From contig DASUVJ010000032.1 of assembly GCA_036378995.1 (NCBI GenBank), forward strand, positions 1-48,321: a stretch of DNA of 48,321 nucleotides, written 5' to 3'. The notes under the pieces were generated by a model. That model did no database searches and was not told the origin of the DNA. It saw nothing but the letters and a program-made list of their open reading frames with translations. Shown here piece after piece: positions 45,262 to 46,049 of the stretch. This DNA is from Candidatus Saccharimonadales bacterium (GTDB lineage: Bacteria > Patescibacteriota > Saccharimonadia > Saccharimonadales > Saccharimonadaceae). A program made the translations under genes and the position numbers. Position 1 is the stretch's first letter, and each line of letters starts with the position of its first letter.

Positions 45262-45277
45262 CCTAACAAGCAACTAC
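45262..45277 (+). repeat. left arm of the inverted repeat bracketing island 4
   Basis: CCTAACAAGCAACTAC is complementary to 46033-46049 (GTAGTTGCTTAGTTAGG) apart from one bulged A. Confidence 0.8.
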
Positions 45278-45281
45278 AAAC

Positions 45282-45332
45282 GTAGATGAGAAACAGAGAT
45301 AGGTCCTCGACGTCTCCCTGTTTCTCATCTAC
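45282..45332 (+). promoter_or_regulatory. perfect 15-bp stem-loop in the island-4 5' leader
   Basis: GTAGATGAGAAACAG (45282-45296) pairs with CTGTTTCTCATCTAC (45318-45332). The loop is 21 nt. Confidence 0.8.
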
Positions 45333-45384
45333 GCGAACGGATTCGCCTAAGGCACTGCCTGCCGGATGAGAGAAGGGATCGGCC

Positions 45385-45957
45385 ATGTCGTCCGACCGCA
45401 CCACCCGCAAGAACTTCCTGCGCTTCGGTCACGGCACCGCCACCATCCAGGTGGACCACTGGCTGTCGGACCCGCAGGGCGAGCAGCCCTCCACCGACGA
45501 GGTCACCTGCTCCGTCGACCACCTCATGGGGTCGGTCGTCCAGGACACCTTCAAGGTGATGGGCCAGCTCAACCGCTCGGTCCAGGCCAAGGGTCTCGAC
45601 GAGGGCGACGTCGTCCACACCTCGACCCGCAGCATGACGATCGGCGGGGCCACCATGCGCGTCAAGGTGAGCCTGCACGTCTTCCGCAACGTGCCCAGCT
45701 ACATCCTCGCGACGGACGTCGACGAGGTCCTCAAGGGCGCCGTGCCCTGCATGATCCACCTGCTCGACAACTCCCTCCAGGACGAGGACGTGCTCAGCAG
45801 CCTGCCCCCGTTCCTGAGGGACCTGCTCGGTGACCTGCCGGACGGTGTCCGCGTCATGGGCTTCCCGAGCGACCTGTTCGGCGGGATGCCCGGCGATGGC
45901 TCGCGTGGCCACCAGGCCCACGGCTACGCCGGTGGCACCCCGGGCCAGTACCTGTAG
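45385..45957 (+). CDS. orphan 190-aa protein with actinobacterial-type codon usage
   Basis: GAGAGAAGGGA RBS lies 6 nt upstream. Nearly every third codon position is G/C. MSSDRTTRKNFLRFGHGTATIQVDHWLSDPQGEQ...; the C-terminus is Gly/Pro-rich (GGMPGDGSRGHQAHGYAGGTPGQYL). No family recognised. Confidence 0.7.
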   Translation: MSSDRTTRKNFLRFGHGTATIQVDHWLSDPQGEQPSTDEVTCSVDHLMGSVVQDTFKVMGQLNRSVQAKGLDEGDVVHTSTRSMTIGGATMRVKVSLHVFRNVPSYILATDVDEVLKGAVPCMIHLLDNSLQDEDVLSSLPPFLRDLLGDLPDGVRVMGFPSDLFGGMPGDGSRGHQAHGYAGGTPGQYL

Positions 45958-45987
45958 GCAGCCGCTGCCTCGGGTCGACTCTGCCTG

Positions 45988-46023
45988 CCGAGGCGCGAAC
46001 GCATCGTCGCGTTCGCGCCTCGG
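45988..46023 (+). terminator. perfect 15-bp GC-rich hairpin 3' of the island-4 ORF
   Basis: CCGAGGCGCGAACGC (45988-46002) - atcgtc - GCGTTCGCGCCTCGG (46009-46023). There is no U-run. Confidence 0.6.
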
Positions 46024-46032
46024 CGCGGCGAA

Positions 46033-46049
46033 GTAGTTGCTTAGTTAGG
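46033..46049 (+). repeat. right arm of the inverted repeat bracketing island 4
   Basis: GTAGTTGCTTAGTTAGG is the reverse complement of 45262-45277 with one extra A. Confidence 0.8.

What the first reader, a model, noticed from the sequence alone, without database searches (positions are those of the whole stretch)
45262..46049. A 16/17-nt inverted repeat brackets the whole island-4 gene (TIR-like ends or an mRNA panhandle)
CCTAACAAGCAACTAC (45262-45277) and GTAGTTGCTTAGTTAGG (46033-46049) are reverse complements apart from one bulged A. They lie about 770 nt apart and enclose the leader hairpin, the ORF and the GC hairpin. At the DNA level this looks like the terminal inverted repeats of a non-autonomous element. 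At the RNA level the arms would pair the 5' leader with the 3' end created by hammerhead cleavage only 8 nt downstream, closing the mRNA into a panhandle. A third possibility is that a pre-existing backbone hairpin was split by insertion into its loop.
Basis: seen in the sequence. Interest (0 to 1): 0.6.

Follow-up and report, generated by a model that had tools for sequence, protein, structure and literature searches.

The report
Ribozyme-linked helix closing a small mRNA
The inverted repeat is real and most likely makes the two ends of one small messenger RNA pair with each other right beside a self-cutting hammerhead ribozyme, a layout that recurs in many related tiny bacteria.

Summary
The repeat is exactly as described: 45262-45277 and 46033-46049 are complementary except for one bulged A, and the second arm ends 8 nt before the predicted cut of a type III hammerhead (46050-46104). 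Alone it is only the best of four comparable long-range inverted repeats in the window.

Its meaning comes from comparison. Hammerheads of this kind occur in 49 of 151 genomes of the same family. In 157 distinct hammerhead loci, the 18 nt just before the ribozyme match an upstream site 120-1400 nt away in 47 cases at p<=0.05, about 8 expected. Five shifted control segments do not.

The arms differ in sequence between loci and within genomes. They lie inside the transcript, 30-50 nt after a sigma-70-type promoter, around unrelated small GC-rich ORFs.

Folding predicts that the arms pair and that, unpaired, the 3' arm disturbs the ribozyme.

I read it as an RNA closing helix that insulates the hammerhead and leaves a panhandle mRNA. 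Terminal inverted repeats and a split terminator are not supported. No RNA data were available.

The parts
45198..45226 (+). sigma-70-type promoter (TTGACT, 17 nt, TAAAAT); the transcript is predicted to start near 45233
   Evidence: 10 of 12 consensus positions, the only promoter-like site in 45100-46250. The same position relative to the 5' arm is seen in related cassettes.
45262..45277 (+). 5' arm of the closing helix, about 30 nt into the predicted transcript; contains AAGCAA (45268-45273), identical to the 3' strand of hammerhead stem III
   Evidence: Paired with the 3' arm in both the MFE and the centroid fold.
45281..45333 (+). leader hairpin (25-nt arms, 88% complementary)
   Evidence: (I1). 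A hairpin sits at the same place in L050 and L054.
45385..45957 (+). cargo ORF, 190 aa, 68% GC, GC3 0.96, no known family
   Evidence: It has only two homologues, at 99% and 61% identity.
45987..46024 (+). perfect 16-bp GC hairpin in the 3' UTR
   Evidence: (I4).
46033..46049 (+). 3' arm of the closing helix (bulged A at 46043); contains TTGCTT (46037-46042), a near copy of the stem III 5' strand
46050..46104 (+). type III hammerhead ribozyme; predicted cleavage after C46057
   Evidence: In an alignment of 47 relatives the catalytic core is invariant and 15 of 17 pairs covary.
46103..46135 (.). 13-bp hairpin flanked by A and T runs; terminator shared with tig (46146-47432, minus strand)
   Evidence: I12. 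One search lists it on the minus strand. The T run after the stem on the plus strand is read.

Best explanation
The two arms act in RNA, not DNA. The island is one transcription unit: promoter, 5' arm, leader hairpin, ORF, GC hairpin, 3' arm, hammerhead, terminator. The 5' arm, about 30 nt into the transcript, pairs with the 17 nt that directly precede the hammerhead.

This should do two things. First, it ties up the sequence next to the ribozyme, which would otherwise invade stem III, so the hammerhead folds and cuts after C46057. Here the helix works as an insulator or licence for the ribozyme. Second, after the cut the mRNA remains a closed panhandle. Its 5' leader and its 3' end (an 8-nt tail ending in a 2',3'-cyclic phosphate) are held by a 16-bp helix. 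That should shield the 3' end from exonucleases and define a monocistronic message.

Shown: the repeat, the hammerhead motif with covariation in relatives, and the recurrence of a cognate upstream partner for the segment adjoining the ribozyme. Predicted only: the pairing in vivo, self-cleavage, and the effect on ribozyme folding. Inferred: stabilisation.
For: (1) Recurrence. Set 1 is 63 hammerhead loci from the same family. The 18 nt before the ribozyme match their own upstream region at p<=0.05 in 22 loci and at p<=0.01 in 13 (Mann-Whitney 6e-13). Five shifted control segments give 1-6 and 0-2 of 63.
(2) Replication. Set 2 is 96 loci found through the exact ribozyme core, and gives 26 and 13, with controls at 4-6 and 0-3. 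After removing 2 shared loci the combined result is 47 of 157, with 46 distinct arm pairs.
(3) Geometry. In the 48 arm-positive rows (47 loci after the removal), the 3' arm ends 0-2 nt before the Rfam-defined ribozyme start in 38. The median span is 612 nt.
(4) Position in the transcript. The arms lie inside it. A promoter matching at least 9 of 12 positions lies upstream in 34 of 46 cassettes, commonly ending 30-50 nt before the 5' arm. The sense ORF is the longer one in 38 of 46.
(5) Arm diversity. Arms differ within single genomes: G076 (L041, L073), G092 (L050, L066), the contig behind L125, and the genome behind L137, L141 and L152. G056 has a cassette at the same tig-clpP site with other arms and an unrelated ORF.
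(6) Folding. The arms pair in the MFE and centroid of the cleaved and uncleaved transcript here. They pair in the MFE of 29 of 41 related cassettes.
(7) Effect on the ribozyme. Without the 5' arm the local fold of 46033-46140 loses stem III. Predicted probability of stem III in arm-positive loci is 0.68 for the ribozyme alone, 0.19 with 45 nt of upstream sequence, and 0.56 with the 5' arm added (19 loci). A second set gives 0.71, 0.19 and 0.56 (17 loci). Arm-negative loci gain nothing on average.
(8) A helix abutting the ribozyme is general. A local hairpin of 7 bp or more ends within 5 nt of the ribozyme in 30 of 159 loci, against 9 of 159 control segments.
Against: There are no RNA data. All runs that hold the region are assembled contigs, so neither transcript ends nor cleavage could be seen.

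Mismatches in the helices show no excess of G-U over A-C (7 against 6, and 22 against 23). So nothing marks the pairing as RNA-specific rather than DNA-level.

The helices are short, near-perfect blocks with sharp ends, which also fits a DNA-level origin.

Only 30% of hammerhead loci pass the test. About half of the positive arms share an ACAAG/CTTGT core (23 of 48), so the loci are not independent.

The hammerhead here scores below Rfam's cut-off.

The folding results are thermodynamic predictions, and cassettes were chosen by complementarity before being folded. A terminator follows the ribozyme here, so a second way of making a 3' end looks redundant.

Within the window the repeat is only marginally above the next best.
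Confidence: 0.6

Rival explanations
1. The helix forms in RNA, but its purpose is to be cut or to repress, not to protect. It would be an RNase III substrate or a translational lock, like the 5'-3' UTR pairing of icaR mRNA, so that pairing lowers expression.
For: G000 encodes RNase III. A 16-bp near-perfect duplex is long enough for that enzyme (recalled). In the family, the SD window pairs with the cassette's own 3' UTR at p<=0.05 in 23 of 146 loci (controls 7 and 14). In about 12 of these the anti-SD is the arm itself. In icaR, 3' UTR-SD pairing blocks initiation and creates an RNase III site (PMC3868564, abstract read).
Against: At this locus the 5' arm lies 107 nt upstream of the start codon, and the SD window shows no complementarity to the 3' UTR (score 10, p 0.76). 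This reading does not explain why the 3' arm must abut the ribozyme within 0-2 nt.
Confidence: 0.15
2. The arms are DNA-level sites. They could be ends of a mobile or exchangeable cassette (terminal inverted repeats, recombinase sites) or the inverted repeats of an invertible segment that switches the ORF on and off.
For: Cargo ORFs are unrelated (46 ORFs fall into 45 clusters) while the ends keep the same layout, and about half share ACAAG/CTTGT. The cassettes sit in many different genomic contexts. The arms are sharp, near-perfect blocks with no G-U excess. The tig-clpP gap holds different islands in relatives.
Against: No second copy of either arm exists in G000. I see no target-site duplication on reading the flanks. 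The promoter and the ribozyme lie outside the arms. Arms differ within one genome, which one sequence-specific enzyme would not tolerate. No strand-changing joints were seen in four runs, though contigs drop rare forms. The ORF is sense in 38 of 46 cassettes. A contig of another study (X5) matches 45126-45381 exactly and then diverges 4 nt before the start codon, not at the arm.
Confidence: 0.1
3. At this locus the repeat is a coincidence, even if related cassettes have real closing helices.
For: Three other loci in the window reach 26-27 against 28 here. The 3' arm has a second 16-of-19 partner inside clpP. This is the only hammerhead in the genome, so no internal replicate exists.
Against: The arm lies exactly where the family pattern predicts. 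It abuts the ribozyme (0 nt from its Rfam-defined start), its partner begins 35 nt after the -10 box, and it carries the ACAAG core. None of 3,906 non-cognate pairs scored as high.
Confidence: 0.07
4. A pre-existing backbone hairpin, for example a terminator between tig and clpP, was split when foreign DNA inserted into its loop.
For: The arms have backbone-like composition, and the GC-rich core ends exactly at the 3' arm.
Against: The 14 relatives with a tig-clpP gap of 46-240 nt show no such hairpin. The leader hairpin, of backbone-like composition, lies inside the arms. The layout recurs at unrelated sites.
Confidence: 0.02

Closest known systems
Hammerhead ribozymes that flank single genes or short gene blocks in bacterial prophages (Perreault et al. 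2011, PMC3088659; passages read)
   Same: Self-cleaving hammerheads lie between genes and are proposed to cut long transcripts into gene-length mRNAs. Arrays of several ribozymes occur, as in G059 contig 13 here with four ribozymes about 620 nt apart.
   Different: That paper describes prophage contexts and mostly type II forms. In the main text, 'long-range' and 'TM7' are absent. Here the ribozymes are type III, in chromosomes of Patescibacteria. Each follows one small GC-rich ORF with its own promoter and is coupled to a 5' UTR partner. The paper's supplements could not be seen.
[quoted passage not shown]
   Same: The 3' UTR and 5' UTR of the same bacterial mRNA pair. In a subset of the family the partner is the Shine-Dalgarno region.
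   Different: No ribozyme is involved there. At this locus the SD is not covered.
hok mRNA tac-fbi fold-back (recalled; only a search listing seen)
   Same: The 5' end and the 3' end of a small mRNA pair and keep it compact and stable until 3' processing.
   Different: hok is a type I toxin with an antisense RNA. Its 3' end is made by a terminator and trimmed by exonucleases, not by a ribozyme. No antisense partner or toxin-like peptide was found here.
Processing stems that flank 16S and 23S rRNA (recalled)
   Same: A long-range helix forms between sequences on either side of a long RNA, next to a processing site.
   Different: There the cut is made by RNase III within the stem, and the RNA is non-coding.
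Synthetic ribozyme insulators such as RiboJ (recalled)
   Same: A hammerhead-type ribozyme is combined with an extra helix, so that flanking sequence does not disturb folding and the processed end is defined.
   Different: Those are engineered, sit at the 5' end and use a local hairpin. Here the element is natural, sits at the 3' end and uses a helix spanning the whole mRNA.
Terminal inverted repeats of non-autonomous DNA transposons
   Same: Two short inverted repeats bracket about 0.8 kb.
   Different: This is a single copy with no target-site duplication. The arms are not shared between cassettes of one genome, and the functional parts (promoter, ribozyme) lie outside the repeats.

Membership tests
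Hammerhead ribozyme, type III (Rfam RF00008) | Catalytic core CUGANGA ... GAAA | tested here: met
   CTGATGAG ... CGAAA at 46076-46098. These columns are invariant in 47 aligned relatives.
Hammerhead ribozyme, type III (Rfam RF00008) | Three stems with stem III open, and stems I and II closed by loops | tested here: met
   Model alignment. The MFE of the full transcript shows stem III 5 bp, stem I 7 bp and stem II 4 bp. 15 of 17 pairs covary in relatives.
Hammerhead ribozyme, type III (Rfam RF00008) | Cleavage triplet N-U-H before stem I | tested here: met
   U46055-U46056-C46057, read with the alignment.
Hammerhead ribozyme, type III (Rfam RF00008) | Score at or above Rfam's gathering cut-off | tested here: not met
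   38.9 bits against 48.5. Only 2 of 151 family genomes have a hit over the cut-off.
Hammerhead ribozyme, type III (Rfam RF00008) | Self-cleavage | not testable with these tools
   Only contig-level data were available.
DNA transposon or MITE with terminal inverted repeats | Several copies with the same ends in the genome | tested here: not met
   One copy of each arm at up to 2 substitutions in 828 kb. The assembly is 86% complete.
DNA transposon or MITE with terminal inverted repeats | Target-site duplication outside the repeats | tested here: not met
   The flanks differ...aacgctc before the 5' arm and actgctt... after the 3' arm.
Invertible DNA segment (inverton) | Both orientations present in a population | tested here: inconclusive
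   No strand-changing joints in 4 runs, but these are contigs, which drop rare forms. The ORF is sense in 38 of 46 cassettes.
Invertible DNA segment (inverton) | Invertase or recombinase nearby | not tested
   Only the neighbours clpP, tig and a TrmB-like gene were scanned.
5'-3' UTR pairing regulators (icaR type) | [quoted passage not shown] | tested here: met
5'-3' UTR pairing regulators (icaR type) | The pairing covers the Shine-Dalgarno region | tested here: not met
   Score 10, p 0.76 at this locus. It is met in a subset of relatives.
Integron gene cassette | attC site at the 3' end and an integrase with attI | not tested
   Considered only. Each cassette here has its own promoter, which typical integron cassettes lack (recalled).
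Split intrinsic terminator | An intact hairpin made of the two arms at empty sites in relatives | tested here: not met
   Not seen in any of 14 short tig-clpP gaps. These relatives are other genera, so intergenic sequence is diverged.

The most novel reading that the evidence does not exclude
The helix is the sensor of a gated ribozyme. The 3' arm acts as an anti-ribozyme and the 5' arm as its antagonist, so the hammerhead cuts only when the 5' UTR is free to pair. Where the 5' arm is the Shine-Dalgarno region (about a quarter of arm-positive cassettes), a bound ribosome would hold the ribozyme off. Self-cleavage would then report whether the message is being translated.

Together with the strong promoters and the unrelated GC-rich cargo, this would be a general Patescibacteria device for expressing foreign genes as end-protected, single-gene mRNAs.

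A bolder and much less likely extension: the cargo keeps host-like codon usage (GC3 0.96 in a 50% GC genome) because some of these sealed mRNAs are meant to be translated in the high-GC host cell.
Probability: 0.25. Interest if true: 0.85.

Novelty: new variant of a known kind. Interest (0 to 1): 0.65.

Why it matters
What most bacterial hammerheads do is still unclear. Here a large natural set gives a concrete, testable rule. At least 157 loci were examined, and 32% of sampled genomes in one Patescibacteria family have a hit. [quoted passage not shown]

If the helix licenses cleavage and seals the mRNA, it would be a natural counterpart of engineered ribozyme insulators. It would also be the first case I know of in which 5'-3' UTR pairing is wired to a ribozyme.

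It also points to a wider feature of these reduced genomes. They hold dozens of small, GC-rich, apparently foreign genes, each set behind a strong native promoter. This bears on how epibiotic bacteria acquire and express new genes.

My searches found no paper that links hammerheads with Saccharibacteria, Patescibacteria, the candidate phyla radiation or TM7.

Tried and rejected
G-U against A-C mismatches as a mark of RNA-level selection. Counts were 7 against 6 inside ungapped helices and 22 against 23 in 63 helices with 11-13 of 14 pairs. This was uninformative.

A decoy copy of stem III in the 3' arm as a general mechanism. It is true here (a 6-nt run). A run of 5 nt or more occurs in only 3 of 35 arm-positive loci, against 6% of non-cognate pairs. 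I rejected it as a rule.

Whole-length RNAduplex scoring of island ends. It does not measure local helices and was replaced by local alignment. That test on the 28 GC-rich island genes of G000 gave 9 of 28 at p<0.1. This is suggestive only, and some matches are AT-rich.

Scoring that allows G-U pairs raised the background from GC-rich cargo and was less discriminating (10 of 63).

The metagenome scan for relatives of the ORF found none. The island DNA has no match in phage records, and the ORF has none in plasmid records. Pfam, PHROGs and the protein atlas gave nothing usable for the ORF.

Circularisation by RtcB. No RtcB was found in G000 (86% complete), and there is no second ribozyme to make a 5'-OH end. 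I did not pursue it. RNB-family exonuclease was also not found.

Read laying. No joints were found. X5 and X2 leave parts of the stretch without cover, which says nothing. One RNA-library contig (X11) is 92% like 45502-45699 and does not show transcription of this locus.

Supplementary files of papers were not available. The hammerhead lists of PMC3088659 might include Patescibacteria examples that I could not see.

'Saccharibacteria-like' is my inference from genome size and from the titles of records that share the ribozyme core.
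Full report
THE OBSERVATION. The two arms are in the sequence as described. 45262-45277 reads CCTAACAAGCAACTAC and 46033-46049 reads GTAGTTGCTTAGTTAGG. They are reverse complements apart from one extra A at 46043. Between them lie a 25-nt-arm leader hairpin (45281-45333), a 190-aa ORF (45385-45957) and a perfect 16-bp GC hairpin (45987-46024). Directly after the second arm comes a type III hammerhead motif at 46050-46104. It scores 38.9 bits against RF00008 (E 1.1e-6), below Rfam's 48.5-bit cut-off, so the default scan of the window reports nothing. 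The core pattern occurs once in the window, with 0.06 expected, and once in the whole assembly. The cleavage site after C46057 is 8 nt beyond the arm. A 13-bp hairpin with flanking A and T runs follows (46103-46135) and also serves tig on the other strand. A promoter-like site (TTGACT, 17 nt, TAAAAT; 10 of 12) at 45198-45226 places the transcript start near 45233, about 30 nt before the first arm.

IS IT MORE THAN CHANCE? I scored every second 18-mer of the window against its own upstream 120-1400 nt. Only this locus reaches 28, and three others reach 26-27. By itself the repeat is therefore the best in 48 kb but not compelling. Neither arm has another copy in the 828-kb assembly at up to 2 substitutions. 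The 3' arm has a weaker second partner inside the start of clpP (45107-45125, 16 of 19).

CONTEXT. The window is one whole contig of a 0.83-Mb, 50% GC assembly in 74 contigs, 86% complete. The island sits between tig and clpP. It lies just beyond an inverted repeat matching the CIRCE operator consensus (recalled), at 45149-45185, upstream of clpP. It is one of four GC-rich islands in the window and of 47 GC-rich segments in the genome. I extracted 28 island genes. Most are preceded by an AT-rich TTGACA/TATAAT-type promoter and followed by a GC-rich hairpin. Both island junctions are covered by contigs of two public DNA runs from one study, so the island is not an assembly artefact. The ORF has no Pfam, PHROGs or atlas assignment and only two homologues, at 99% and 61% identity.

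EMPTY SITES. Of 24 relatives in which tig and clpP lie on one fetched locus, 14 have a gap of 46-240 nt. That gap holds little more than the CIRCE-like repeat, and none shows a hairpin made of the two arms. Ten have gaps of 394-1187 nt. Three of these (L003, L015, L022) hold a different promoter-plus-GC-richer-ORF island in the same orientation. The site is thus a hot spot, and the split-terminator idea finds no support.

THE COMPARATIVE RESULT. RF00008 hits at E<=0.001 occur in 49 of 151 sampled genomes of the same family, counting G000. They occur in 13 of 151 genomes sampled across the phylum and in 0 of 14 control genomes. An alignment of 47 of them keeps the catalytic core invariant and shows compensatory changes in 15 of 17 pairs, so these are real hammerheads.

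For 63 loci I took the 18 nt immediately 5' of the ribozyme and looked for its complement 120-1400 nt upstream. All non-cognate locus pairs served as the null. 22 of 63 reach p<=0.05 and 13 reach p<=0.01 (Mann-Whitney 6e-13). Segments 18-36, 36-54 and 60-78 nt upstream, and 0-18 and 20-38 nt downstream, give 1-6 and 0-2 of 63.

The exact ribozyme core from the window was then searched in one genome per species. In 96 usable loci from that search the same test gives 26 and 13, with controls at 4-6 and 0-3. Two loci are shared between the sets. Combined, 47 of 157 loci are positive, with 46 distinct arm pairs.

ANATOMY OF THE POSITIVE CASSETTES. The 3' arm ends 0-2 nt before the ribozyme start in 38 of 48 rows. 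The span has a median of 612 nt. A promoter matching at least 9 of 12 positions lies within 150 nt upstream of the 5' arm in 34 of 46. Its -10 box commonly ends 30-50 nt before the arm, and 35 nt here. The longest sense ORF exceeds the antisense one in 38 of 46. ORF GC exceeds flanking GC by a median of 0.10. The 46 ORFs fall into 45 clusters by blastp, and the cassettes sit beside many different core genes. G056 has a cassette at the same tig-clpP site with arms GCAACAAACCG/CGGTTTGTTGC and an unrelated ORF. Arms differ between cassettes of one genome (G076, G092, and two named records). About half of the 5' arms, including this one, share an ACAAG core. CTTGT occurs in the 16 nt before the ribozyme in 29 of 177 loci, against 2 of 177 control segments.

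RNA OR DNA? Several points favour RNA. Both arms lie in the transcript. One arm is tied to the ribozyme with nucleotide precision. Only complementarity, not sequence, is shared within a genome. There are no repeated copies and no target-site duplication. The coding orientation is constant.

Several points do not discriminate. G-U and A-C mismatches are equally frequent. The helices are sharp, near-perfect blocks. No inversion joints were seen, but only contigs were available. One contig from another study (X5) matches 45126-45381 exactly and then diverges 4 nt before the start codon. If real, this places a cargo boundary at the start codon rather than at the arm.

FOLDING. The cleaved transcript (45233-46057) and the uncleaved one (45233-46140) both pair the arms in the MFE and the centroid. 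The uncleaved MFE also shows the correct hammerhead. Folded without the 5' part, 46033-46140 pairs the 3' arm with the 5' strand of stem III and loses the ribozyme fold. The 3' arm holds TTGCTT (46037-46042), a near copy of the stem III strand CTGCTT (46051-46056). The 5' arm holds AAGCAA (45268-45273), the same as the ribozyme's 3' strand (46098-46103). This decoy is not general.

The arms pair in the MFE of 29 of 41 related cassettes. The predicted probability of stem III in arm-positive loci falls from 0.68 (ribozyme alone) to 0.19 with 45 nt of native upstream sequence. It returns to 0.56 when the 5' arm is supplied (19 loci; 10 gain more than 0.2). Arm-negative loci go 0.76, 0.48, 0.47 (32 loci). 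The second set gives 0.71, 0.19, 0.56 (17 loci; 12 gain more than 0.2) and 0.49, 0.29, 0.27 (42 loci; 35 of 94 loci were skipped by guards). A local hairpin of 7 bp or more abuts the ribozyme in 30 of 159 loci, against 9 of 159 control segments. The common theme is that the sequence touching the ribozyme is kept paired, either locally or with the 5' UTR.

MECHANISM I COMMIT TO (0.6). The arms form a closing helix in the mRNA. It insulates or licenses the hammerhead. After the cut it leaves a panhandle message whose 3' end carries a cyclic phosphate next to a duplex. The stabilising effect is inferred from the known needs of 3' exonucleases (recalled). RNase III is present, while RtcB and RNB-family enzymes were not found in this 86%-complete assembly.

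Rivals are an RNase III or translational-lock role (0.15), a DNA-level cassette or inversion site (0.10), coincidence at this locus (0.07), and a split hairpin (0.02). A subset of relatives does mask the SD with the arm (23 of 146 at p<=0.05, controls 7 and 14), but this locus does not.

WHAT IS KNOWN. Bacterial hammerheads flanking genes in prophages were described in 2011, with mRNA processing or circular products proposed (PMC3088659, passages). 5'-3' UTR pairing is known for icaR (PMC3868564, abstract) and for hok (recalled; listing). I found no paper joining hammerheads with Saccharibacteria, Patescibacteria, the candidate phyla radiation or TM7. The one paper that holds both 'hammerhead' and 'TM7' does not link them. 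I therefore rate this a new variant of a known kind.

LIMITS. There are no RNA ends, no probing and no kinetics. The loci are partly related to each other. The folding results are predictions.

Noticed in passing
window 21038-21689, 22919-23420, 34901-35388, 45288-46108; 47 segments genome-wide: The 50% GC genome is studded with short 65-74% GC islands. Most hold one small orphan or membrane/secreted-looking ORF with GC3 of 0.8-0.96, set behind an AT-rich TTGACA-N17-TATAAT promoter and followed by a GC-rich hairpin. This looks like systematic capture and expression of foreign high-GC genes. The donor was not identified.
   Followed up: partly
tig-clpP gap: window 45186-46145; L003, L015, L022, L078: The gap between tig and the CIRCE-like repeat before clpP is 46-240 nt in 14 relatives. 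In at least four other genera it holds different promoter-plus-ORF islands in the same orientation, one of them (G056) with a hammerhead. It is an insertion hot spot.
   Followed up: partly
window 45149-45185: An inverted repeat matching the CIRCE (HrcA operator) consensus, TTAGCACTC-N9-GAGTGCTAA (name and consensus recalled), lies upstream of clpP. It is conserved in most relatives.
   Followed up: no
G059:C13:5951-7889 (L063): Four hammerheads on one strand lie about 620 nt apart. Each is followed within about 10-30 nt by a TTGAnn-N17-TATAAT-like promoter, making a tandem array of ribozyme-ended single-gene units.
   Followed up: no
L093, L094, L095, L111, L142, L146, L147, L156, L168, L169, L171, L180, L185, L208, L210 (just after the ribozyme): In Paceibacteria/Parcubacteria-type records a motif like GTTCTTT-N-AAAA follows the hammerhead directly, and a local hairpin precedes it. 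This is a different flank architecture from the Saccharibacteria type.
   Followed up: no
G000 contig C61, about 349-840: A GC-rich island without a hammerhead also has a perfect 12-nt 5' UTR/3' UTR inverted repeat (CGGATAAGCTCC), just upstream of the SD and after the 3' hairpin. 9 of 28 island genes score p<0.1 for such end complementarity. Closing helices may not be limited to ribozyme cassettes.
   Followed up: partly
window 45107-45125 versus 46028-46046: The 3' arm has a second partner (16 of 19) inside the first codons of clpP on the opposite strand. The equivalent G056 locus shows no matching relation, so I treat it as chance.
   Followed up: partly
window 45381/45382: A 324-nt contig of a run from another study (X5) is identical to 45126-45381 and then continues with 68 unlike, AT-rich letters, 4 nt before the start codon. 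Nothing in that run covers the ORF or tig. This may be a strain with the same promoter and leader but other cargo, or a contig artefact.
   Followed up: no
window 45502-45699: A 198-nt contig of a soil metatranscriptome library (X11) is 92% identical to the middle of the ORF (16 differences). A relative of the cargo gene exists elsewhere and may be expressed. DNA carry-over cannot be excluded.
   Followed up: no
L050, L053, L068, L073, L123, L184, L206, L211 (30 nt before the ribozyme): One subfamily shares about 30 conserved nucleotides before the hammerhead (TTTTCCTATAACCCCATGTCTGCTTGTCAT and variants). The TTCCT part could pair with the cassette's own AAGGA-type SD, as in L050, giving a second, inner 5'-3' contact.
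   Followed up: partly
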